Below are positions 8,786 through 22,306 of a stretch of DNA of 41,011 nt, in pieces. Source of the DNA: Candidatus Iainarchaeum sp. (GTDB taxonomy: Archaea; Iainarchaeota; Iainarchaeia; Iainarchaeales; GW2011-AR10); contig JACQJF010000052.1 in NCBI GenBank assembly GCA_016198165.1, positions 1-41,011 of the forward strand. Direction: 5' to 3'. The notes under the pieces are model-generated. The model worked only from the letters and a program-made list of their open reading frames with translations. It ran no database searches and was not told where the DNA came from. A program made the translations under genes and the position numbers. Numbering within the stretch: the stretch's first letter is position 1; each line of letters starts with the position of its first letter.

Positions 8786-8886
8786 CGGACGCAAGTTTGG
8801 CTTTAAGCCAAACAGCGGTGTGAACGGACGCAAGGGCTGTTGAGCGAAGCGAAACGCCCGCGGTGTGAACGGACGCATACCGTTCA
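8786..8886. repeat. Mini direct-repeat array with hairpin spacers (REP-like)
   Basis: GCGGTGTGAACGGACGCA at 8815-8832 and 8860-8877, partial CGGACGCA at 8786; spacers GTTTGGCTTTAAGCCAAAC and a GCGAAGC-containing hairpin. Confidence 0.75.
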
Positions 8887-12092: not shown

Positions 12093-12341
12093 TCATTCGC
12101 CGACTTTTTCGGTTGTCTGCTCTATGCCTGTCCTGACTTCCCCTTGCTGGGTGTTGAAGATGTTTTTAAGCGTGATGCCGACAATCATTGCAAGGACAAC
12201 CGCGCCACCGATTAGCAAGAGGGTTTCGACGCTTGCCTGGGCTCTTTTTCCAAGCGGGCCCTTGCGCGAGCCCGCGGCGCGTACATGCCCTGTTTTCAAC
12301 AGGGCGGTAGTATTGTTTTCCATGCCGTCACCAAATTTCAT
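12093..12341 (-). CDS. Short pilin
   Basis: KRA/QASVETLLLIGG. Confidence 0.8.
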   Translation of the reverse strand: MKFGDGMENNTTALLKTGHVRAAGSRKGPLGKRAQASVETLLLIGGAVVLAMIVGITLKNIFNTQQGEVRTGIEQTTEKVGE

Positions 12342-13285
12342 GCCCCGCCTACAAGTGCCTTTGAAAGGACGCTTGAAGCCGTGTAGGACAGGATTGCAAT
12401 AAACAGTATGATTGGGAAGTATATAATGGTTTTGGAGAGCCTTCCTTCCCTCATGAGCGCCATCATTGCGCTTGCGGCTATTACCTGTGCAACCATGTAA
12501 AACTGCACCCCCAGGTTAATCGTCTCGGCGGCCTTTTGTGCGGCAAGTTTTTCCTCCGGCTTTCCAATGGATGCCGCGGCGTTGATGAGGACGTTGCTTA
12601 TCGTGCCTACGAAACCGAAAATCATTGGAGCCACCACCCCGCCGGCTGCGGTCATGAAAATCACTTGGAGCAGTGTCCTTGTTTTCCTTTCCCTGCCAAT
12701 CTTGTGGGTTTCCCGGACATCGTCGCTGATTTCATCGAGTATTTCCGCAAGCCCCGCCCCTGCCTTGATGGAGTCGATTATTATGGTCACGGTCCTGTTT
12801 ATTATGCGGGAGTCAACGTTGTCCGAAAGGGTCGTCAGGGCGTTTGAAAAATTCTCTCCCTCTTCGAGTTTTCTCAGTATCTCGATGAGTTCTTTTTTGA
12901 GCGGCCCGTACTCGGAGTATGCCACTTCGCGCAGGGCAAACTCGATTGTCCCGCCGCTCTTGAGCGTGTCAGACATCTGCTTTAGGGCATCCGGTAGGTT
13001 TTCCTCTATGCTGTCTACCCTTTGCACTGCTTTTATGTAAGGGTATCCAAGCAGCAGGTCAAGGATGACGATTGTCGTCCCAAAGCCGATGAGCAAAAAC
13101 CCGGGGAGGTAAAAATAGAACATGGCTCCCGCAACCGCGGCTAAAGCCAGGCTTAGCGCTATCCAGATGACCGCGTCTATTTCCAGTTCTATCTGGTCAA
13201 ACATTCTCTGGTACTTTTTCAACGCCCCAATCCGGTTCAAGAACGGGGCCCTGTATGCGAGGTTTAGTGACATTTTTTTTTTCAC
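12338..13285 (-). CDS. Type IV pilus platform protein (T2SS-F/TadC-like)
   Basis: IEENLPDALKQMSDTLKSG...YGPL...GAGLAEIL. Confidence 0.9.
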   Translation of the reverse strand: MKKKMSLNLAYRAPFLNRIGALKKYQRMFDQIELEIDAVIWIALSLALAAVAGAMFYFYLPGFLLIGFGTTIVILDLLLGYPYIKAVQRVDSIEENLPDALKQMSDTLKSGGTIEFALREVAYSEYGPLKKELIEILRKLEEGENFSNALTTLSDNVDSRIINRTVTIIIDSIKAGAGLAEILDEISDDVRETHKIGRERKTRTLLQVIFMTAAGGVVAPMIFGFVGTISNVLINAAASIGKPEEKLAAQKAAETINLGVQFYMVAQVIAASAMMALMREGRLSKTIIYFPIILFIAILSYTASSVLSKALVGGA

Positions 13286-14451
13286 ACGCTTGGCTGTATT
13301 GATTTTATGTAATAAATGAGAAACCCTAGGATTCCCGGGAATATCATGGTATATAATGCAAGGATTATTGATGGCGGCATGCTGACACTTGCAATCGGCA
13401 GTCCAAGCGGCGCGTTGAGGATTGTCCCGATTATTGCAATGAATACGGGGATGACGATGGCGCCGAAAATGAATATTACCCCGAAAAAGTTCATTTTTTC
13501 GGCAAAGTCACGGATGCTCAGCTGCAAGTCAAATGACACGTCTTCTGCTATTTCGTTCATGACGTTTGAAAGCTTTCCGCCGGTCTTTAGGGCCCTGATG
13601 ATGTGGAACAAGGCGTTTCGCAGTGACTTTGACTGTGTGCGCAGGGCAAAGTGGCGCAGTGCCTCTTCAGTCCCGGTGCCCTCCTCGATTTCGTTGATTG
13701 TCCTTGCGAACTCCACTGACAACAACCCATAGTTGCTTGAGGCGATTGTTTCAAGTGTCTTGTAGAGGCTTATGCCGGCTCGAAGCTCGGTTGACATGTG
13801 GCGAAGCGCAAACGGGAGTTCCCTGCTTATTTCTTTCCCGCGTTTTTGTGCAATGCTTTTCGGAATCATTAGCACCATTATCAGCGTGAGGAAAAACATT
13901 CCAATGCCTATCGCAAAAGCCAGTGCGATGTCGAATTTGAGTGCAATGCTTGCCACAATTCCAATTGCCGTGGAAACAACAAACGCGAGGCCTGCAATCG
14001 TTACCGAGAGCGCAAGGTACTGCCTTGCGGAATAGTTTACGTTTGCACTGTACAGGTAAAACGCGAGTTCCTTTGAAATGGGGAACCTTTTAACCCCGCT
14101 GATTAATGGTTCAAGGAGGAGCCGTGTTGACAAAAAAATCCTTCCAAGCGTGCTTACAAGCGGGGATTTTATCTCTATGAGCTCTTCAACCGGTTGTGTC
14201 GAGACTTTGACGCTTTCTGTTCCGCTGACCATTCCGCGCAGTTCGTAAATGCTTTCTTTTGCCGGCTCCTGGGCTCTTCCTTCTTCGCGGTATTTTTTCT
14301 TCATTTCGGAGACAATCTTGTCCACTGTTTTTGGGTCAATCCTTAACTGTTCCTCCTGCTGTTCTTTTTTCTGTTTTTTTGATTCCTCGATTTTTTTCCT
14401 GATGTCTTCAAAATTCATTTTTTTTTCAGCCTGTTGGTTTTTCCTTGTCAA
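13282..14451 (-). CDS. Type IV pilus platform protein (T2SS-F/TadB-like)
   Basis: ISRELPFALRHMSTELRAG...YGLLS...LKTGGKLS. Confidence 0.9.
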   Translation of the reverse strand: MTRKNQQAEKKMNFEDIRKKIEESKKQKKEQQEEQLRIDPKTVDKIVSEMKKKYREEGRAQEPAKESIYELRGMVSGTESVKVSTQPVEELIEIKSPLVSTLGRIFLSTRLLLEPLISGVKRFPISKELAFYLYSANVNYSARQYLALSVTIAGLAFVVSTAIGIVASIALKFDIALAFAIGIGMFFLTLIMVLMIPKSIAQKRGKEISRELPFALRHMSTELRAGISLYKTLETIASSNYGLLSVEFARTINEIEEGTGTEEALRHFALRTQSKSLRNALFHIIRALKTGGKLSNVMNEIAEDVSFDLQLSIRDFAEKMNFFGVIFIFGAIVIPVFIAIIGTILNAPLGLPIASVSMPPSIILALYTMIFPGILGFLIYYIKSIQPSV

Positions 14452-16132
14452 TAAAATCGAGGCACATTTGTGTCACCTTGTCCATTGCGTGCGTTTCGTT
14501 GTCTATAAGTTCCTTGAGGAATTTTTCCCTTTTCTTTATTTCTTTTTCCACGCTGTCAACCGTTTTTCCGGAAAATATCGCAACCGCCTTGAGGTACTCT
14601 GAAGAGTTTTTTGTCCTTGAAATCGAGTCGCTTGCAGGGTCATACTGGAATATGGCCACTGTCTTGGTTTTCCCTTCAAGGCTTCCGGCGACTTCGGCTA
14701 TTTCCGTTACCCTGCGTATTGTCCCTTTTTTCTTGTCATGCAGCCTGTGTTCAACGAGGATGAAATCAAGCCCGCTGAGCATGACTTCTGGCACGTTCAT
14801 GGGCGGTGAAACCACTCTCACCACGGTTTCTCTTGGGGAGTTGGCGTGTATGGTGCCAAGGCAACCGGAATGACCCGTGTTAATTGCCGTGAAAAACGTG
14901 AAGGCCTCTGCGTGCCGTATTTCCCCGACGATTATCCTATCGGGCCTCATCCTCAGAGAGTTTTTTGTGAGAATGTCAAGTGTTATTTCCCCCTTGCCTT
15001 CAAGCCCGGGTGGTTTTCCCTCAAGCCTTATCCAGTGTTTTAACGGCAGGTTGAGTTCAGCGGTGTCTTCAATGCTTATTATCCTCTCATAGGGCGGGAT
15101 GAATGCAGCCAGGGCATTGAGGCTTGTGGTTTTTCCACTCCCCGTGCCCCCTGAAATCAGTATGTTTGCGGGTTTTACATTGAGTCCTTCCACGCAGAGC
15201 CACAGGAATGCCCCGACTTCCGTGTTTATAGTGTTTGAGGTTATGAGGTCAATTATGCTGTAGGGGTCTTTGCGGAATTTCCTGATTGTGAGTGTCGAGC
15301 CGTCAACTGACGCGGGTTCAACGGTCGCGTTCACCCGGCTCCCGTCAGCCAGCCGCGCGTCAAGCATTGGGGAGCTTATGTCCACGCGCCTTCCCACGAG
15401 CCTGGCAATCCTATTGACGAGGTCTATTATTTCCTGGTCCGAGTAGAACTCGATGTTTGTGGTCATCATTTCGTATTGCCTGTGGAAAATGTAAACAGGT
15501 TTTTTCGGGCCGATTACCATTATTTCCTCTATTTTGTCGTCGTTTACAAGCGGGTCTATCAGGCCGTATCCGACCATTTCGCGGACCACGGATTCCGCGT
15601 AAAATTCCCACCTGTGCTGGGGTATTCCAAGTTGTGGAGAGTTTTGTAGTATTTCGATTACTTTTTGGTAGTAGACGTTCCGCCTTTCCTGCTGGTCGCG
15701 TATCTTGAAAGGCGCAATTGTAATGAGGCGCGTGGCGGCTTCCTTTATAGTGTTGATTATCGCTTTTTCCGCGGCGGTGGGCCTTGGGACAGGGGTCGTG
15801 TATTCGGGGATGAATTCGCCCTGTACCGTGTATATTTTTGCGTTTCCATAGGACGTGACCAGTTTTTTCTTCCGGTTGTCCTTTTCCTGCTCCCGTGCCT
15901 CTTCAACCTGGCCCTGGGTTAGTGTTTCTGCGGCACCTGTCTTTTGTGCAGGTTTTGGCTCTTCAGCCTTTTTGAAGATTTTTTGCTCTTTTTCGCCTTT
16001 TTTTTCCTTGGAAAAAATTTCAGGGATTTTTTCTTCTTCCGGTTCCACTGGTTTGGGTTCGCCTGCTTCCTGTTCTGCAAGCCTTTTTTTCTTTTTTATC
16101 TTTTCAATCATTTCATCCATGTAATTAGGCAT
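14426..16132 (-). CDS. Type IV pilus assembly ATPase (VirB11/TadA/CpaF family)
   Basis: GGTGSGKTT, IEDTAEL, LRMRPDRIIVGEIR, NTGHSG...TIHA; start uncertain. Confidence 0.95.
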   Translation of the reverse strand: MPNYMDEMIEKIKKKKRLAEQEAGEPKPVEPEEEKIPEIFSKEKKGEKEQKIFKKAEEPKPAQKTGAAETLTQGQVEEAREQEKDNRKKKLVTSYGNAKIYTVQGEFIPEYTTPVPRPTAAEKAIINTIKEAATRLITIAPFKIRDQQERRNVYYQKVIEILQNSPQLGIPQHRWEFYAESVVREMVGYGLIDPLVNDDKIEEIMVIGPKKPVYIFHRQYEMMTTNIEFYSDQEIIDLVNRIARLVGRRVDISSPMLDARLADGSRVNATVEPASVDGSTLTIRKFRKDPYSIIDLITSNTINTEVGAFLWLCVEGLNVKPANILISGGTGSGKTTSLNALAAFIPPYERIISIEDTAELNLPLKHWIRLEGKPPGLEGKGEITLDILTKNSLRMRPDRIIVGEIRHAEAFTFFTAINTGHSGCLGTIHANSPRETVVRVVSPPMNVPEVMLSGLDFILVEHRLHDKKKGTIRRVTEIAEVAGSLEGKTKTVAIFQYDPASDSISRTKNSSEYLKAVAIFSGKTVDSVEKEIKKREKFLKELIDNETHAMDKVTQMCLDFIDKEKPTG

Positions 16133-16174
16133 AAACGCGTCTAAGATTAGACGCAATTATGATATTTAATAATA

Positions 16175-16312
16175 GCGGGGCCCGTGCAGGGCTCGTACCC
16201 TGCCGGGCACAAGCGACGCGTGCGGCCTAGCGGCCCTACTTGCCTTGCGGCAAAATCGCCTTTGCGTGGGCCCGCGGCGCGTATGTGTCTCCTCTTCGGG
16301 GAGACTGTAATA
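16175..16312 (-). repeat. Structured repeat copy A: TATTAC-hairpin-ACATACGCG plus a multi-stem domain
   Basis: Minus strand TATTACA-GTCTCCCC GAA GAGGAGAC-ACATACGCGCCG, then a GC-rich multibranch fold closed by GGGCCC/GGGCCC. Confidence 0.65.
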
Positions 16313-16380
16313 CATTTCTATTGAACCGCCGCCAAGTAGATGAGTAAATTTTTTTTATAGTAATCCAAAATTATATACTC

Positions 16381-16440
16381 TATTACCGCCCCATTGAAAA
16401 TGGGGCACATATGCGGCGCGTGTGCCCCGCAGGGTATAAA
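16381..16440 (+). repeat. Structured repeat copy B
   Basis: TATTACC-GCCCCATT GAA AATGGGGC-ACATATGCGGCG-C-GTGTGCCC CGCA GGGTAT. Confidence 0.7.
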
Positions 16441-16457
16441 CTCCAGCAAGGGTTTTT

Positions 16458-18353
16458 TTATTGGCCGTTGAATTGTTCCAGGAAATCCTGCAACTTGACG
16501 TTAAAACTGACCTGGGCGAATCTGTCGCGCACTGCAATCGTCCCATTTTTCTCCTCTTTTTCGCCAAGGGTAAGGATGAATGGCGTTTTTTGGAGTTGTG
16601 CGTTGCGGACCTTGTATGCAACGGTTTCGTTTGACAGGTCAAGTTCCGTCCTGATGCCTGCTTTGGAGAGCTGTGCGTGGATTTTTCTTGCATAATCCGC
16701 GTGCTTTTCGCTCACGGGAAAAAGAACTGCCTGTACGGGGGCAAGCCAAGTGGGGAAGCTTCCGCCGAAGTGCTCCACGAGGATTCCAATGAATCTTTCA
16801 AGCGAGCCATAAATCGCCCTGTGCACGATGACCGGGGTTTCTTTTTTGTCCTCGGAATTGATGAAGTAAATCCCGAATTTTTCGGGCATTGAAAAATCCA
16901 CCTGGATTGTGCCGACCTGCCAGTTCCTCCTCAAAGAATCCGTTATGTGGAAGTCTATTTTGGGGCCGTAGAATGCGCCGTCGCCGCTGTTTACCTTGTA
17001 ATTGATTTTTTTTTCCTTGAGCGCGTCTTCAAGGGCGCGTGTCGCGTTCTCCCAGATTTCCTTTGACCCCATTGCCTTTTCCGGGCGCGTGGACAACTCC
17101 ACTCTGTACTCGAACCCGAATTTGTTGTAGATTGTCGTGGTGAGGTCAATCACGTCGACCAGTTCTTTGCGCAGCTGCCCGTGGCTTGCGAAAATGTGTG
17201 CGTCATCCTGTGTGAATTTCCTGACCCTGAACAGGCCGTTGAGGACTCCTGACAGTTCGTGGCGGTGGACGGTTCCAAACTCCGCAATCCTTAGTGGCAA
17301 TTCCCGGTATGACCTTCTTTTTTCCCCGAAGATGAGTATGTGCCCGGGGCAGTTCATCGGCTTGACCGCAAAGTCTTCCTCGTCTATTTCGACAAAGTAC
17401 ATGTTTTCCTTGTAGTGTTCAAAGTGCCCTGATTGTTCCCACAGTTTTTTCTTCATTATCATGGGCGTGATTACTTCAAGGTAGTTTCTTTTTTCTTGTT
17501 CCCTGCGCAAAAACTCCATTAGCTTGTTGTAAATCACCGTTCCCTTCGGGTGGAAAAATACCGTGCCTGGTGCTTCCTCGTGCATTGAGAACAGGTCAAG
17601 TTCTTTTCCGAGTTTGAGGTGAGAGTTTTCAGCGGCCTTTTTCTGCATCTCCAAATACTCGTCGAGCATTTTTTTTTCAGGGAACGCTATGCCGTAGATT
17701 CTCTGAAGCGACTTGTTTTTCTGGTCCCCCCGCCAGTAGGCCCCGGATGTCTTGAGTATTTTCACTGCCTTTATCTTCCCGGTTTCGCTCACGTGGCCGC
17801 CCTTGCACAGGTCGGCGAATTTTCCAGTGAAGTAAACAGTCAGTGTTTTTCCCGCTCCTGTGAATTCTTCTATTAGCTCTTTTTTGTACGGGTTTTTTTC
17901 AAACAGCCTGATTGCGTCTTTTTTTTCGAGTTTTTTCCCGTGCACTTTTTCCTTGCGCGAGATTATTTCAATCATTTTTTTCTCTATTTTTTCAAGATCC
18001 TCTTTCGTGAACGGGTGTGAAACGTCAAAGTCGAAGTAGAAACCTTCGTCTATTGGTGGCCCGATTGCGGGCAATGCGTCTGGAAATACTTCCTGCACTG
18101 CTTCGTTGAGCACGTGTGCGGCCGTGTGCCAGAGGGCTTTTTTTCCCTCAGCGTCATTCCACGTTAGGATGCGGAAATTTCCGGATTCTTCAAGCGGTGC
18201 GTCAAGCTCGATTGTCCGTTCGCCCAGTTTTACCGCCAGTGCGTCGCGTGCGAGCCGCTCGCCGATGCTTGCTGCAACTTCAAGCCCCGTCGCCCCTTTG
18301 CGGAACTCTTTTTTCTTCCCGTCGGGAAAAACGAGGGTTATCTTATCAAACAT
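16458..18353 (-). CDS. thrS: Threonyl-tRNA synthetase, bacterial type
   Basis: TGS domain, WHTAAH/DLCKGGH editing domain, KPMNCPGH, RVRKFTQDDAH, AFYGPKID, HRAIYGSLERF; ATG at 18353. Confidence 0.97.
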   Translation of the reverse strand: MFDKITLVFPDGKKKEFRKGATGLEVAASIGERLARDALAVKLGERTIELDAPLEESGNFRILTWNDAEGKKALWHTAAHVLNEAVQEVFPDALPAIGPPIDEGFYFDFDVSHPFTKEDLEKIEKKMIEIISRKEKVHGKKLEKKDAIRLFEKNPYKKELIEEFTGAGKTLTVYFTGKFADLCKGGHVSETGKIKAVKILKTSGAYWRGDQKNKSLQRIYGIAFPEKKMLDEYLEMQKKAAENSHLKLGKELDLFSMHEEAPGTVFFHPKGTVIYNKLMEFLRREQEKRNYLEVITPMIMKKKLWEQSGHFEHYKENMYFVEIDEEDFAVKPMNCPGHILIFGEKRRSYRELPLRIAEFGTVHRHELSGVLNGLFRVRKFTQDDAHIFASHGQLRKELVDVIDLTTTIYNKFGFEYRVELSTRPEKAMGSKEIWENATRALEDALKEKKINYKVNSGDGAFYGPKIDFHITDSLRRNWQVGTIQVDFSMPEKFGIYFINSEDKKETPVIVHRAIYGSLERFIGILVEHFGGSFPTWLAPVQAVLFPVSEKHADYARKIHAQLSKAGIRTELDLSNETVAYKVRNAQLQKTPFILTLGEKEEKNGTIAVRDRFAQVSFNVKLQDFLEQFNGQ

Positions 18354-18412
18354 GGGAAATCCACAAAGATTATAACAAACCAAAAAAATAATTCGGCAAA
18401 TTTTTCATGGTT

Positions 18413-18465
18413 CCTTGCAAATGCTTTTGCATTTGCGAGGCCTCGCAAAGCTTCGCTTTGCAAGG
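18413..18465. repeat. Double-hairpin/cruciform palindrome
   Basis: CCTTGCAAATGC TTTT GCATTTGCGAGG | CCTCGCAAAGC TTC GCTTTGCAAGG. Confidence 0.8.
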
Positions 18466-18608
18466 TGTTATCTGTCAAACCATGCTAATATGCCTAAAAT
18501 ATTTTCATGGTTTGACATATTTTAAGCAAAAAAGCGTATAAAAACCATGCCTTTTTTTCCCTTTTCCAAAGGCAAAGTTAATAACTCGGCTTGAAGTTAT
18601 TTTTTCTT

Positions 18609-19259
18609 ATGCGCTGGAGAGCACACCCTGTTTTTGCATCGCGTTTACCCCACTTAAAGCCATTCTCTAAAATAGGAAATCATCGTGTTTGGCGCGTGGA
18701 AGATATAGGGCAGCAACTTAGCAAGCTTTTGGAAACGGAGAAAATAACCCCTGAGCAGGCAAGCAGGGTATTCACTTATGTTATAAACACTGCCAATGAC
18801 CCTTCAAAGCCTCTGCCCAAAGGAACTATTGAGTTAAGGCGTAAATACCCTTTTCTTCAGCCCCACCAGCCGGAAAACGTGGTCAGAGTGGAACGCGGGG
18901 TTTTTTCACGGATTCCTGCCCGCAGGGAAAGGGCTTTTAGGCGTTACAGGATTTACGCCAATGCAGGAAAATACATAAGTAAACATTTTGGCCAAGTGCT
19001 CAATCCAGTTCAAAGACGCGAGCTTAAAGATATCTTCATGGGTTGGTTCAGGCTGCGTTTTTCCAACACAGGCAGAATCCCTGATGCGGCAACTTCAGAA
19101 GAGTTTCTTGGGCATTTTGCGGATTTTTTGCAAAGACAGCGTAAAGTGGGAAACCGGGCTGATTTTCAAGCCAGCGTGAATTTCGCCGTAACCATGTTTG
19201 AGCGCGCACTAACAAGCAGGGCTCGCAGACCCCCATCGAGAAAGCCTCCTGTTCGTTAA
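18609..19259 (+). CDS. Arg-rich orphan protein
   Basis: About 216 aa ORF filling the intergenic gap; very basic; no family recognised. Confidence 0.65.
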   Translation: MRWRAHPVFASRLPHLKPFSKIGNHRVWRVEDIGQQLSKLLETEKITPEQASRVFTYVINTANDPSKPLPKGTIELRRKYPFLQPHQPENVVRVERGVFSRIPARRERAFRRYRIYANAGKYISKHFGQVLNPVQRRELKDIFMGWFRLRFSNTGRIPDAATSEEFLGHFADFLQRQRKVGNRADFQASVNFAVTMFERALTSRARRPPSRKPPVR

Positions 19260-19295
19260 AAACTCTTTTACCATTTTTCCATCCCTCATTTTTTC

Positions 19296-20543
19296 ATGCA
19301 AAAGATTTCACCACAGCTTTGCGTGCGCTGCAAGGGCCGCCTCTGGTGCGGCCTGTCGGCATGCCCCATTATGGAAAAATTCGAGTCACAGAAACAGTCG
19401 CTTGCACTGGTCAAGGGCACGAGGTTTGAGGGTTCGAACCCGCCTGGTTTTCTCGTCACGCACAAAAATTACCCCAACATCCAGGCAGGCCCTGTATCAC
19501 TGCCTGGGGTGGAAAAGGACTCGTCTTTTTTCGATGACCCCACAAAATGGTTCGGCATGTCAGCGCGCGAAATCATTTCCATGCGCGCACGCTTGTTGTC
19601 TTCAAGTGTGCCTGTCAAGGCAAGTGATGCATCCAACCCAAAGCGCGGGCTTTTGGAAATGCAGGAAGTCGTGCTTTCAAGAACCCCCGTGTCTGCAGAG
19701 TTTGAGTTGAAAGAAAAGCCAAAACATGTCCTGTCTTTTAGTGACACTGTTGCCCCGGTTGGCGCGCGTGCGCGCCTTGAAAAAATGTCCCTTTCAGGCT
19801 CGCCGAGGCTCCCGAAGAAGGCGGAGTATTTCTGGAGTGACTCCGACGCAAAAGCCATTGAAGCCCTGGAAGGCCTGTTCCAATCTGGCATGCCCGTGCA
19901 TTACCTGTACAAGGCGCTCAGTTCCGGCGCATTCGGGGTTAAAAAAAACCGCAAGCTTGTCCCAACGCGCTGGTCAATTACGAGCGTGGATTCCCGGTTG
20001 TCAGGGTTTTTAGTGGACAAAAAAATCAAGTCATTTAGGGAACTTGGGCCAGTAGAAGTTTACGCAGAATCTTTTTTGGGAAACCATTTTTTTGTCGTGC
20101 TTGTCCCGCGTGAGTGGGGTTTTGAAATGCTTGAATCCTGGCTTCCTGGCGCAGGCTGGGCGGCTTTTGCTGAAAAAAAAGAATTCCATGTCCTGTGCGA
20201 CCACGAGGGTTATGACGGGCGCAGGGATTACGCGTCAAACATTACCGGGGCCTATTACGCCGCGCGCCTGCCGGTTGCAGAGCATCTCGTGCGCAAAAAG
20301 CGCCAGGCATCGGTTTTCGTTTTCCGTGAAATAGATGAAACATACAACATCGGCCTTGGGGTGTGGGTCATCCGCGAGACAATGAAAAAGGCGCTTGAAA
20401 AAAAGCCACAGGTTTTTTCTTCGCTGAATGAGGCTTTTTCTTTTGTCTCCCCGCGTTTGCAGGTGCCTTTTGCTTTGTATGAGAAAACGAGCAGTCTCAT
20501 GGGGCGCGTGAGGTTCCAGTCCAGACTATCGGATTTTTCTTGA
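19296..20543 (+). CDS. nreA: Nre family DNA repair protein
   Basis: CVRCKGRLWCGLSACP zinc motif, RKLVPTRWSITSVD, GAYYAARL, C-terminal PIP box QSRLSDF. Confidence 0.92.
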   Translation: MQKISPQLCVRCKGRLWCGLSACPIMEKFESQKQSLALVKGTRFEGSNPPGFLVTHKNYPNIQAGPVSLPGVEKDSSFFDDPTKWFGMSAREIISMRARLLSSSVPVKASDASNPKRGLLEMQEVVLSRTPVSAEFELKEKPKHVLSFSDTVAPVGARARLEKMSLSGSPRLPKKAEYFWSDSDAKAIEALEGLFQSGMPVHYLYKALSSGAFGVKKNRKLVPTRWSITSVDSRLSGFLVDKKIKSFRELGPVEVYAESFLGNHFFVVLVPREWGFEMLESWLPGAGWAAFAEKKEFHVLCDHEGYDGRRDYASNITGAYYAARLPVAEHLVRKKRQASVFVFREIDETYNIGLGVWVIRETMKKALEKKPQVFSSLNEAFSFVSPRLQVPFALYEKTSSLMGRVRFQSRLSDFS

Positions 20544-20557
20544 ACGCGGGGCAAAAT

Positions 20558-21532
20558 TTATTCGTGCTGTTTTTTGTGCTTTGCAAACTGTGCAAGCATT
20601 GCCTCAAGCTGTATTCTTTCGCTTGCGCCCTCTACAAGCCTGAAATCGTATTCGCCGATGATGTCTGCAAGGTCTGCCTTGAGTTTGAGCGGGATTACGG
20701 TGTCATCTGAGTTCATCATTTCCCTGTAGAGCTGCCCGATTACGTCTTCCCCGCTCATGCCGTAAGCGTAGAGCAAATAATCGAGTTTGTCGCGTGCTTC
20801 GAGGAATTTTCCCGAAAGCGCAAGCGTAATCATTTCCTTTATTTCCGCGGGGTTTGCGCGGCTTGAAATGGAAAAAACTTCCTTGTCCGAGATTTTTTTG
20901 TCCGCGCTTGAGGCCGCCTGGAGGACGTTGATTGCTTTTCTCATGTCTCCTTCCGAGACGTAGACAATTGCGTCAAGCGCGCTTTTTTCAAGCTCCACTT
21001 TTTCGCTTTCCGCCACTTCCAAGATTTTTTTTTCAACGTCTTTTGAAGGCAGGCTCTTGAAGCGGAAAACGACACAGCGTGACTGTATGGGTTCAATTAG
21101 CTTTGATGAAAAATTGCATGACAAAATGAAGCGGCATGTTTTCGAGTATTTTTCCATGGTTCTCCTGAGTGCCTGCTGTGCGTCCTGCGTCAAGGCGTCC
21201 GACTCGTCGAGGAAAATTATCTTGAAGGAAGAGTCGAATGCAAGCGTGCGCGCGAAGTCCTTGATTGTCCCGCGAACGACATCGATGCCTCTTGCATCAC
21301 TCGCATTCAACTCTAAAAAATTCTGTTCAAAGCTTTTTGGGAACAGTTCTTTTGCCAGGGCGATTGCCGCTGAGGTTTTCCCTATTCCTGCGCGGCCTGC
21401 AAAGAGCATGTTCGGAACCGACCGGTTTTTTGCGTATTCCTCGAGTTTTTTCGTTATTTCCCCGTGGCCAACCACTTCTTTGAGTGTTTTTGGCCTGTAT
21501 TTTTCAATCCATGGAAGCCCTTCGTTCATCAA
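20558..21532 (-). CDS. rfcS: Replication factor C small subunit
   Basis: PWIEKYRP, GRAGIGKT, ELNASDARG, DESD, QSRC, GDMRKAIN; no intein. Confidence 0.97.
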   Translation of the reverse strand: MMNEGLPWIEKYRPKTLKEVVGHGEITKKLEEYAKNRSVPNMLFAGRAGIGKTSAAIALAKELFPKSFEQNFLELNASDARGIDVVRGTIKDFARTLAFDSSFKIIFLDESDALTQDAQQALRRTMEKYSKTCRFILSCNFSSKLIEPIQSRCVVFRFKSLPSKDVEKKILEVAESEKVELEKSALDAIVYVSEGDMRKAINVLQAASSADKKISDKEVFSISSRANPAEIKEMITLALSGKFLEARDKLDYLLYAYGMSGEDVIGQLYREMMNSDDTVIPLKLKADLADIIGEYDFRLVEGASERIQLEAMLAQFAKHKKQHE

Positions 21533-21670
21533 AAAAACCTTTTTTTTCTTTGAAATCTTTGAAATATTTTCTTCCCGTGAAGGTGTTTTAAAAGCATAAG
21601 GGGGCCTCTTTCTTGTAGCTTTTAATTATTAATGTTACAAAAAGTAGTGTGTTTTCATGTTAACCCAAAA

Positions 21671-21728
21671 TATTACCGTCCCTTCGCAGGAAGGGGCACA
21701 TATGCGGCGTAAACCTGCGCACAGGTTT
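21671..21728 (+). repeat. Structured repeat copy C
   Basis: TATTACC-GTCCCTTC GCAG GAAGGGGC-ACATATGCGGCG-T-AAACCTG CGCA CAGGTTT, ending just before the ATG at 21734. Confidence 0.7.
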
Positions 21729-21733
21729 TTTTC

Positions 21734-22306
21734 ATGAACCGGGATAACGCGTTAAAGATTGGCTTTGTTTTCATTGTCAGTTACGTTTTTTTGTTCGTGC
21801 TTTCATCGCTTAGCGACCTGACCGGTTTTCGGAAATGGGGTTTGACAACGGATATTTTCCGCCTTGACTACATGTATGCCCTCCTGCCTGTCGCAGGCTT
21901 TTTCTTCATGTTTTTCCTTGTTGACTGGATTGAGTCTTTTTTTGAAACAAGGTTCACGCGCACGCCGTGGTTTGGGGTGTTTGTCCTCGTGATGGGCATT
22001 GTGGCTTTCTACATTGCGTCTTTCTGGTTTTTCTGCAACGTTTTCGGGTTTTCGACAAATGAGGCGTGCGGTCAGCAGGGTGCAAAGAACACTCTTGAGT
22101 ACCTGTCTGCAAATGCTGATACCAGAAACGTAATCATCGGCTTTTTGTCAGGCTTGCCGGGGGTAGGGCCTTTTTTCGGGTCTTTTCTGGGCACGAATTT
22201 TTTCAGGCTTTTTCTGGAGAGCGCCTTTGTTCTTTTCCTGCTTTCGGCAGTTTTCGGCTGGGCGGCAAGACTTATTTACTTTAAGCTTGAAGGGGCAAAG
22301 GCTTAA
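21734..22306 (+). CDS. Hypothetical integral membrane protein
   Basis: About 4 hydrophobic helices. Confidence 0.75.
   Translation: MNRDNALKIGFVFIVSYVFLFVLSSLSDLTGFRKWGLTTDIFRLDYMYALLPVAGFFFMFFLVDWIESFFETRFTRTPWFGVFVLVMGIVAFYIASFWFFCNVFGFSTNEACGQQGAKNTLEYLSANADTRNVIIGFLSGLPGVGPFFGSFLGTNFFRLFLESAFVLFLLSAVFGWAARLIYFKLEGAKA

What the first reader, a model, noticed from the sequence alone, without database searches (positions are those of the whole stretch)
16175..21728. Three-copy covarying structured element: TATTAC-hairpin-ACATAYGCG-hairpin
Seen: copy A (16312->16274, minus), copy B (16381-16440, plus) and copy C (21671-21728, plus) keep the unpaired TATTAC and ACATA(T/C)GCG(G/C)CG. The intervening stems differ in sequence yet stay paired (GTCTCC/GGAGAC, GCCCCATT/AATGGGGC, GTCCCTTC/GAAGGGGC). 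The second hairpin also varies. G-T wobbles favour the TATTAC orientation, and loops are GAA/GCA-type. I could not match it to a ribozyme, riboswitch, tRNA, SRP or RNase P RNA. Inference: either a new ncRNA/leader motif (A and C precede genes in sense) or an ssDNA substrate for an HUH transposase. GNA triloops are very stable in DNA, and IS608 cleaves at TTAC.
Basis: partly seen in the sequence, partly recalled or inferred. Interest (0 to 1): 0.75.

Follow-up and report, generated by a model that had tools for sequence, protein, structure and literature searches.

The report
Hairpin mobile element seeding tRNA introns
The three look-alike hairpin stretches are copies of a small repeat that has spread through the genome of a tiny groundwater archaeon, landing in front of genes, inside removable protein leaders and inside tRNA genes, where it forms the intron.

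Summary
The window holds 4 full copies, not 3. The 0.96-Mb genome holds 51-87, depending on threshold, and four sister genomes hold 34-96 each. No Rfam family matches. Both hairpins covary strongly, and wobble pairs favour the TATTAC strand, 46 G.U against 15 A.C.

It is not a gene-specific leader. Comparing congeneric genomes shows copies are insertions. Copy C is absent from G001, where an 8-nt target stands once; in G000 it stands twice. G002 has none of copies A, B and C at the matching spacers. Three further filled/empty pairs show duplications of up to 23-24 nt. There are no terminal inverted repeats. The 3' end is fixed after the last hairpin and the 5' arm varies.

Copies also sit in frame in a class III signal peptide. 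All 6 tRNA introns of 105 nt or more hold one. tRNA-Met has the 110-nt intron in G000 but none in G001.

Best reading: a non-autonomous, TIR-less mobile element spread through a single-stranded intermediate. The enzyme is unknown: no reverse transcriptase was found in 6 genomes, and its signature does not fit IS200/IS605. Earlier notes of this scan describe similar elements in other DPANN genomes.

The parts
12253..12319 (-).
   Evidence: cmsearch 71.1 bits, E 6.4e-23; sequence read
12093..12341 (-). 82-aa class III signal peptide (pilin-like) ORF. Its start overlaps the stop of the upstream T2SSF gene. Copy D lies in frame in its N-terminal leader.
   Evidence: Pfam Class_IIIsignal starts at residue 32 here, but at residue 9 in the 42-aa G005 ortholog, which has no element
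16175..16319 (-). Copy A: core 16319-16253 plus a GC-rich modular tail down to 16175, which includes the module 16221-16195. It lies in sense, 42 nt upstream of the ATG (16132) of the T2SSE-type ATPase gene.
   Evidence: 66.2 bits for the core and 13.1 bits for the tail module; sequence; no element in the G002 spacer
16359..16452 (+). Copy B (B-type subfamily): 22-nt 5' arm AGTAATCCAAAATTATATACTC, core, and two tail hairpins. It is flanked by TTTTTTTAT at 16350-16358 and 16453-16461, and points at the 3' end of thrS.
   Evidence: 70.2 bits; alignment of 6 B-type copies fixes the boundaries; direct repeat k=9; no element in G002
21660..21728 (+). Copy C, a 69-nt insert: 5' arm TTAACCCAAAA, core, and hairpin AAACCTG-CGCA-CAGGTTT
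   Evidence: 67.9 bits; the syntenic G001 site is empty; G002 is also empty
21652..21659 (+). Left copy of the target duplication TTTTCATG. The right copy is at 21729-21736 and holds the start codon of ORF 21734..22306.
   Evidence: G001 has gttttcATGaaccggg once; G000 has the octamer on both sides of copy C
8795..8885 (+). Tail-only fragments (GCGGTG-T-GAACGG-ACGCAA-type modules) without TATTAC or hairpin 1
   Evidence: Weak partial cmsearch matches, 8.2 and 9.5 bits, E 0.51 and 0.17; sequence

Best explanation
The stretches are copies of an abundant, non-autonomous mobile element of a small-genome (DPANN-type) groundwater archaeon and its relatives.

A copy consists of:
- a variable 5' arm of 12-40 nt;
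- TATTAC;
- an 8-bp hairpin whose sequence drifts by compensatory change;
- ACATAYGCG-NYG;
- one or more 6-bp hairpins with NNGCAA loops.
It ends directly after the last hairpin, in one subfamily with a few T.

Shown here: copies are inserted by a copy-and-paste event that duplicates 8 to about 24 nt of the target, without terminal inverted repeats. The surviving copies lie where extra sequence is tolerated:
- between promoter and start codon;
- just after stop codons;
- in frame in a cleavable class III signal peptide;
- in tRNA leaders and trailers;
- at position 37/38 of tRNA genes, where the copy is the intron.

Inferred: the hairpins and the unpaired motifs are kept because the spreading form is a single strand of TATTAC polarity that an unidentified enzyme must recognise.

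Most likely (about 0.35-0.4 on its own): that strand is a transcript running from a host start site to the last hairpin or T-run, copied into a nicked target in the manner of a SINE. A single-stranded DNA route with an unknown nuclease is nearly as likely.

Once inserted, a copy is a passenger. It becomes a structured 5' leader, an upstream reading frame or a tRNA intron, not a dedicated regulator.
For: Abundance and spread. The model R1 finds 87, 39, 67, 95 and 96 matches in G000, G001, G002, G005 and G004 at E<=0.01. 23 of 101 genomes sampled from the order match at E<=1e-5. All 6 genomes of the family have 13-51 matches; 17 of the other 95 have 1-6.

Insertion polymorphism:
- Copy C is filled in G000 and empty in G001, with the 8-nt target doubled.
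- G002 lacks A, B and C at the matching spacers.
- The C47 B-type copy is absent from G001, where the T-run stands once.
- C62-7481 is absent from G001, with (G)TTTTTTAT doubled in G000.
- C32-17125 is present in G000 and G001 and absent from G002, with a 23-24-nt duplication.
- G001 carries insertions that G000 lacks.

Flanking direct repeats. Repeats of 12 nt or more flank 4 of 60 copies against 1 of 300 controls. Repeats of 9 nt or more flank 14 of 60 against 19 of 300.

Structure on one strand. Covariation stands at 0 of 500 shuffles. G.U against A.C is 40:13 in ordinary copies and 6:2 in the 12 copies that lie antisense to tRNA transcripts. So the bias belongs to the element, not to the host RNA.

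Tolerated sites. A copy sits in frame in the leader of a class III signal peptide, and the G005 ortholog lacks it.

tRNA genes. All 6 introns of 105 nt or more hold a copy. tRNA-Met is interrupted in G000 and intronless at the syntenic G001 site. tRNA-Gly(TCC) is interrupted in G000, G001 and G002 and intact in G003.

Hint of a transcript intermediate. In 4 of 8 well-bounded lineages the 5' arm starts within 3 nt of an ATG. 4 of 10 B-type copies share (C)ATGCAA beyond the T-run.
Against: No mobilising enzyme was found.
- RVT_1 is not found in any of the 6 genomes of the family, including the 99%-complete G003.
- No TnpB-type domain is found in G000.
- Y1 transposase is patchy.
The other genomes are incomplete bins (60-89%), so an enzyme on an unbinned plasmid or virus is not excluded.

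The tRNA-Met insertion shows no target duplication; only 1 nt is ambiguous. So either two routes exist, or selection hides the footprint.

The strict orientation rule at tRNA genes is unexplained: 3 leader copies are sense, while 6 intron copies, a seventh at a contig end, and 5 trailer copies are antisense.

For the B-type subfamily, the left T-run plus AT could belong to the element itself and not be a duplication.

No RNA data exist, so no transcript has been seen.

Many short flanking repeats of 7-8 nt are at chance level.
Confidence: 0.7

Rival explanations
1. A family of structured RNAs with a cellular job. In this reading the motif is a shared 5' leader or small-RNA scaffold that regulates or processes the genes and tRNAs downstream, for example as a protein-binding handle, and copies arose by ordinary duplication.
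For: Hairpins are kept on one strand with G.U pairs. The unpaired motifs TATTAC and ACATAYGCG and the NNGCAA loops are conserved. By my crude gene calls, 16 ORFs and 3 tRNA genes lie directly downstream in the same sense. B-type copies look like small genes, with TTTATA about 25 nt upstream of TATTAC and a T7 run at the end.
Against: Copies come and go between congeners, with target duplications. Downstream genes are unrelated to one another: a pilus ATPase, an unknown membrane ORF, ribosomal-protein-like ORFs and tRNAs. 12 tRNA-associated copies and about 10 copies next to stop codons are antisense to the host transcript. One copy is translated as part of a signal peptide. There is no Rfam match.
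Confidence: 0.12
2. A portable promoter cassette. The AT-rich AAAATATTAC box would be a TATA box, and transcription would start about 30 bp downstream in ACATAYGCG. Every copy would then drive an RNA beginning GCGNCG plus a hairpin. The element may still be mobile.
For: The distance from TATTAC to the A/G of ATAYGCG is 29-32 nt in all copies, which fits archaeal TATA-to-start spacing (spacing recalled; distances). The box is the only AT-rich stretch between GC-rich hairpins. Divergent head-to-head pairs occur (A/B in the window; C18 and C21).
Against: tRNA genes without the element have TTTAAA/TTTATA-type boxes, not TATTAC. A covarying hairpin between box and start site has no role in this model. 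The pilin-like ORF needs a start codon upstream of the proposed start site. In copy C the native promoter is still in place upstream. Copies in tRNA introns and trailers would drive antisense tRNA transcripts.
Confidence: 0.1
3. A palindrome-associated element of the IS200/IS605 type, moved as single-stranded DNA by a Y1 (HUH) transposase that reads the hairpins and cuts next to TTAC.
For: Structure is strand-specific. 23 of 55 hairpin-1 loops are GNA triloops (GAA 17, GCA 4, GGA 2), which are known to be very stable in DNA (stability recalled; counts). There are no inverted terminal repeats. Y1_Tnp fragments occur in G000 and G001, and a full 141-aa gene in G004, with an element copy starting about 70 nt after its stop.
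Against: Insertions duplicate 8-24 nt of target. TATTAC is inside the insert, behind a variable arm, and the empty sites have no TTAC. The two hairpins are unlike each other. In G004 the transposase gene is flanked by hairpins of its own with TTTA loops. No Y1_Tnp was found in G002, G003 or G005, which hold 13-95 copies.
Confidence: 0.06

Closest known systems
Prokaryotic small non-autonomous repeats: MITEs, and modular hairpin repeats such as the BOX elements of Streptococcus pneumoniae (recalled; reviews seen only as search listings)
   Same: Both are 70-250 nt, non-coding, high-copy, hairpin-forming and mostly intergenic. Both have a modular tail with a variable number of hairpin units, and both vary in presence between close relatives.
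   Different: This element has no terminal inverted repeats. Its target duplication varies from 8 to about 24 nt where a MITE's is fixed. One end is fixed and the other variable. It is strand-specific with G.U pairs. No related transposase-bearing parent was found. A true TIR-bearing, TA-duplicating MITE is nested inside some copies, which makes the contrast plain.
SINE / non-LTR retroposons of eukaryotes (recalled)
   Same: Both lack inverted repeats, have target duplications of variable length, and have a fixed 3' end with a short homopolymer that matches the target (the T-run subfamily). In both, the 5' end is variable and set by a transcription start, and flanking sequence can be carried along.
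   Different: This element is archaeal. Its tail is T/U-rich, not A-rich. No reverse transcriptase was found in 6 genomes of the family. No internal promoter is shown.
Transposing tRNA introns of Thermoproteales (Fujishima et al. 2010, not read; described in passages of PMC4090602, and in section 2.5 of preprint 10.64898/2026.10.13.758758)
   Same: Similar intron sequences occur in tRNA genes of different isoacceptors: 7 tRNA genes here share the element. The gain is recent, since tRNA-Met differs between G000 and G001. The introns lie at a position compatible with splicing.
   Different: Here the intron body is a genome-wide repeat that is far commoner outside tRNA genes, so a donor pool is identified. 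All intron copies lie antisense to the element's own structured strand. The published cases name no such intergenic family, and the review calls the mechanism unknown.
IS200/IS605-derived palindrome-associated elements (recalled)
   Same: Both are hairpin-based, strand-specific and lack inverted repeats.
   Different: See the membership test: target duplications are present, there is no conserved flanking target, and the two hairpins are unlike each other.

Membership tests
Any Rfam 15 family | Match at the family's gathering score | tested here: not met
   0 matches in the whole window at gathering score. At E<=10 over 16000-22000 there were 7 weak hits, none on a copy.
Classical MITE | Terminal inverted repeats | tested here: not met
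   Ends fixed by filled/empty pairs share at most 4-6 complementary bases. This was read by eye; no formal scan was run.
Classical MITE | Target duplication of fixed length | tested here: not met
   Observed lengths are 8, 8-9, 11, 12, 15, 16 and 23-24 nt.
Classical MITE | Short, non-coding, many copies, insertion polymorphism | tested here: met
Classical MITE | A transposase-bearing parent with the same ends | tested here: not met
   None was seen among the copies examined. No systematic search for long copies was made.
IS200/IS605-type element (PATE) | Insertion without target duplication, next to a conserved 4-5 nt target | tested here: not met
   Duplications are present. Empty sites are GTTTTCATG, a T-run, GTTTTTTTAT and CAGTTTTTTAGG, and none holds TTAC.
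IS200/IS605-type element (PATE) | Similar subterminal hairpins at both ends | tested here: not met
   Hairpin 1 has an 8-bp stem and a 3-4 nt loop. Hairpin 2 has a 6-bp stem and an NNGCAA loop.
IS200/IS605-type element (PATE) | Y1 transposase in genomes that carry the element | tested here: inconclusive
   Fragments in G000 and G001, a full gene in G004, none found in G002, G003 or G005. Bins are incomplete.
SINE-like retroposon | Variable target duplication, no inverted repeats, fixed 3' end | tested here: met
SINE-like retroposon | A reverse transcriptase available in the cell | tested here: not met
   RVT_1 was found in 0 of 6 genomes of the family and in 7 of all 41 relatives searched. Unbinned elements were not covered.
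SINE-like retroposon | The element is transcribed from end to end | not testable with these tools
   No RNA run holds the stretch.
Archaeal bulge-helix-bulge tRNA intron | Interrupts the tRNA at a splice-competent site (canonical 37/38) | tested here: met
   ARAGORN with introns such genes, plus tRNA-Leu at a contig end. The exons are collinear with intronless orthologs.
Archaeal bulge-helix-bulge tRNA intron | Bulge-helix-bulge fold at both junctions | tested here: inconclusive
   The fold of pre-tRNA-Met pairs the two intron ends (8 bp) next to the anticodon stem, at -71.8 kcal/mol, z -2.96. A 4-bp central helix can be drawn by hand. No dedicated BHB scorer was run.

The most novel reading that the evidence does not exclude
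DPANN archaea carry a SINE-like element that is copied from transcripts of leaderless genes into nicked DNA. The copying enzyme would be either unrecognised or borrowed, since no canonical reverse transcriptase is present. The same element is the raw material of new tRNA introns, as in tRNA-Met, gained within one genus. That would give the first concrete donor and route for archaeal tRNA intron gain, and the first RNA-mediated small retroposon family in archaea.
Probability: 0.3. Interest if true: 0.9.

Novelty: new variant of a known kind. Interest (0 to 1): 0.7.

Why it matters
How archaeal tRNA introns arrive is an open question. A 2014 review calls the transposition mechanism unknown (PMC4090602, passages). 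[quoted passage not shown]

Here the intron body is an identifiable repeat whose copies lie mostly outside tRNA genes. One intron differs between two genomes of one genus, and intergenic insertions of the same family leave readable footprints. That turns the question into one that population metagenomics or an enrichment culture could answer.

The element also reshapes gene starts in a genome of about 1 Mb. It adds structured leaders, upstream reading frames and signal-peptide extensions. It breaks assemblies and hides tRNA genes from default finders (against 13).

Three full-text searches listed no paper describing such an element in DPANN archaea. That is no proof that none exists.

Tried and rejected
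- Rfam at gathering score and at E<=10: nothing on the copies.
- ARAGORN on the window: no tRNA.
- Sequencing runs: no RNA holder listed. Laying Logan contigs of 4 DNA runs showed contigs ending at the repeats and no contig bridging an empty site, so nothing was learned about polymorphism within samples.
- Two scans of viral contigs with element patterns: 0 matches.
- One metagenome scan gave 6 loci, two of them on a 742-kb contig; I did not analyse them.
- TnpB-type domain in G000: none. Reverse transcriptase in G000 and relatives: none in the family.
- Y1 transposase locus of G004: an element copy lies nearby, but the transposase gene is flanked by different hairpins of its own. I rejected it as the parent.
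- Long-range pairing of a reverse and a sense copy as an RNA processing stem between tRNA-Gly and tRNA-Val: the hairpin-2 sequences are not complementary to each other (by eye).
- A self-cleaving ribozyme or riboswitch: considered only; no known core motif was seen and nothing was tested beyond Rfam.
- Coding potential. One frame (I-T-A/V-P-S...) is usually open, and copy C forms a 26-codon upstream frame whose stop overlaps the real ATG. I did not test this against composition and make no claim.
- Two further ORFs on contig C52 carry a copy in frame before an R-A/G-Q-plus-hydrophobic stretch that looks like a class III signal. Pfam did not confirm it, so only the window's case is counted.
- The 1.5-kb G000-only insert on C62 proved to be an intein, not a parent element.
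- Strand test by folding energy of the whole 67-nt core: no significant difference (29 lower against 26 higher, p 0.23). Hairpin 1 alone favoured the TATTAC strand (16 against 9, with 30 ties, p 0.008).


Full report
**What is there.** The pattern TATTAC-N(10-35)-ACATAYGCG gives 3 matches in the window against 0.00 expected in 100 shuffles (sequence).

A covariance model built from 35 copies of the same genome (alignment A1; model R1) finds a fourth full copy at 12319-12253(-). It also finds partial tail modules at 16221-16195(-) and 8795-8885(+).

Nothing in Rfam 15 matches, and the window has no tRNA.

The genes are archaeal: Nre, RFC small subunit, and a type IV pilus-like cluster. The genome is a 0.96-Mb, 67%-complete bin with 46.5% GC. 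Its DNA is held by groundwater metagenomes.

**Anatomy.** A copy reads as follows:
- a variable 5' arm of 12-40 nt, in many copies holding YCCAAAA;
- TATTAC;
- one base;
- an 8-bp hairpin (G-N5-T-Y / R-A-N5-C) with a 3-4 nt loop;
- (C)ACATAYGCG-NYG-Y;
- then one to four or more 6-bp hairpins with NNGCAA or GNRA-like loops, sometimes separated by further GCG-NCG-Y units.

On A1, 88.8% of cells pair against 68.0% in shuffles (0 of 500 reach it). 13 of 14 pairs change on both sides, and slid controls fall to 31-48%.

Wobbles sit on the TATTAC strand. Hairpin 1 in 55 copies has 24 G.U against 7 A.C (binomial p 0.003). All stems together have 46 against 15.

GAA is the commonest hairpin-1 loop, in 17 of 55 copies.

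**How many and where.** R1 finds 87 matches in G000, 39 and 67 in the two other species of the genus, and 95 and 96 in a sister genus (E<=0.01).

In a sample of 101 genomes of the order, 23 match at E<=1e-5. All six genomes of the family have 13-51 matches, and 17 of the other 95 have 1-6.

In G000, I placed 60 nhmmer matches of at least 45 model positions against a crude gene call:
- 16 ORFs and 3 tRNA genes lie directly downstream in the same sense;
- 11 copies point at the 3' end of a convergent ORF;
- 6 copies lie inside tRNA introns.

In both orientations it is the hairpin-2/tail end that abuts a gene boundary.

**It is an insertion, not a fixed leader.** Synteny with other species of the genus gives filled and empty sites.

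1. Copy C. G001 reads ...gtagtatGTTTTCATGaaccggg. G000 reads TTTTCATG, a 69-nt element, then TTTTCATGaaccggg. G002 has no element there either.
2. G002 has a plain spacer of about 110 nt where G000 has copies A and B.
3. The B-type copy on C47 is absent from G001, where one T-run stands.
4. C62-7481 is absent from G001, and (G)TTTTTTAT is doubled in G000.
5. C32-17125 is present in G000 and G001 and absent from G002. The duplicated target is 23-24 nt with one mismatch.

G001 in turn has insertions upstream of the copy-C site that G000 lacks.

Within G000, flanking direct repeats of 12 nt or more occur at 4 of 60 copies, against 1 of 300 controls. Repeats of 9 nt or more occur at 14 of 60 against 19 of 300. 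Repeats of 7-8 nt are at chance level.

The ends defined in this way show no terminal inverted repeat. The 3' end lies 0-7 nt after the last hairpin, and the 5' arm differs between subfamilies.

**Sites that tolerate it.** Copy D lies in frame inside an 82-aa ORF whose ATG overlaps the stop of the upstream T2SSF gene. Pfam places the class III signal peptide at residues 32-57. The 42-aa ortholog in G005 has it at residues 9-33 and no element. Because that leader is cut off by the prepilin peptidase (established knowledge, recalled), an in-frame insert there can be harmless.

Copy C leaves the native promoter in place and creates a 26-codon upstream frame whose stop overlaps the true ATG. I did not test whether that is more than chance.

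**tRNA genes.** An intron-aware ARAGORN run tRNA genes with introns of 105-149 nt. Each holds a copy, always antisense to the tRNA. tRNA-Leu(TAA) at a contig end is a seventh.

Five 3' trailers hold antisense copies 2-70 nt after the tRNA. Three 5' leaders hold sense copies 0-4 nt before it.

tRNA-Met(CAT) has a 110-nt intron in G000. The syntenic G001 gene, with 95% identical flanks, is intronless. There is no target duplication at this site.

tRNA-Gly(TCC) is interrupted in G000, G001 and G002 and intact in the complete genome G003. G003 nevertheless has a diverged copy in the trailer.

The fold of pre-tRNA-Met pairs the two ends of the intron beside the anticodon stem. That is compatible with a bulge-helix-bulge site but does not prove one.

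**How it most likely works.**

Shown: copy-and-paste insertion with variable target duplication, no inverted repeats, and one-strand structure that persists even in copies read from the other strand by the host (6 G.U against 2 A.C in 12 antisense tRNA copies).

From this I infer that the hairpins serve the spreading form, a single strand of TATTAC polarity, and not the host transcript.

Four features resemble retroposed transcripts:
- the variable duplication;
- the fixed 3' end, with a few T that match T-run targets;
- 5' arms that begin at an ATG in the C16, C32-17125, C33-2453 and C10-27842 copies, as 5' ends of leaderless mRNAs would;
- the shared (C)ATGCAA beyond the T-run in 4 of 10 B-type copies.

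Against that route, RVT_1 is found in none of the six genomes of the family.

The IS200/IS605 idea fails on target duplication, on the position of TATTAC inside the insert, and on the patchy Y1 transposase.

I therefore hold 'mobile, non-autonomous, single-strand-structured element' at 0.7. Within it I give the transcript route about 0.35-0.4, with an unknown single-stranded-DNA route close behind.

**What remains unexplained.**
- The orientation rule at tRNA genes.
- The missing duplication at tRNA-Met.
- The identity of the enzyme.
- Whether inserted copies also act as promoters. The TATTAC box sits 29-32 nt before ATAYGCG, but tRNA genes without the element use TTTAAA/TTTATA boxes.

**Relation to what is known.** The element behaves like the small repeats of bacteria and like SINEs, but it meets the defining tests of neither MITEs nor IS200/IS605 elements (see the membership table).

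Intron families shared between tRNA genes are described for Thermoproteales. Their mechanism is called unknown (PMC4090602, passages). A 2026 preprint found no general arrival route in Asgard archaea (abstract and section 2.5). For PMC3293823 I saw only the abstract. Fujishima et al. 2010 I did not read. I opened no supplements.

Earlier notes of this scan describe similar hairpin repeats in leaders and tRNA introns of other DPANN genomes, and a different IS630-type MITE in this genome. I took them as leads. The nested TA-duplicating element I saw fits the latter.

Noticed in passing
window 18368-18524 (+): A copy of a different repeat family of about 150 nt, upstream of ORF 18591..19259. It is 85% identical to G000:C47:16706-16862 and is also found on C12, C11, G001:C65, G001:C70 and G002:C114. 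Only sub-threshold Rfam hits lie there.
   Followed up: no
G000:C62:12849-14376 (L080): A 1.5-kb in-frame insert in the V-type ATPase A subunit, between GPFGSGK and TVTQQQ, with C...HN borders, i.e. an intein. The syntenic G001 gene lacks it.
   Followed up: partly
G000 C13:3600-3680(-), C42:8850-8920, C33:6600-6680, C50:8180-8250(-); tRNA-Ile(TAT) trailer on C18: A second small element with inverted ends (AAAACCTTGGCAA...TTGCCAAGGTTTT) and a duplicated TA is nested at the same spot (GCG-TA-AAC) in the tails of four copies.
   Followed up: partly
window 18384-20557 against G002:C68: In G002, thrS is followed within 29 nt by the RFC small-subunit gene. G000 has an unknown 222-aa ORF and the Nre gene between them.
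   Followed up: no
window 12093-16156 (-): A type IV pilus-like cluster: a T2SSE-type ATPase, two T2SSF-domain proteins and two small class III signal peptide proteins.
   Followed up: partly
G000:C32:17125-17200 against G001:C74: Orthologous copies differ by a 15-nt mini-hairpin (GCTTGCCCTGAAAGG) sitting in the loop of hairpin 1. The same 'long hairpin 1' form recurs in copies on C47, C11, C26 and C10.
   Followed up: no
G000:C62:16806-16875: A 57-69-nt G000-only insert made of reverse tail modules (GGGCCC-TTGCGT-GAGCCC-GCGACGC...) at the end of an ORF. It was not detected by the core model.
   Followed up: no
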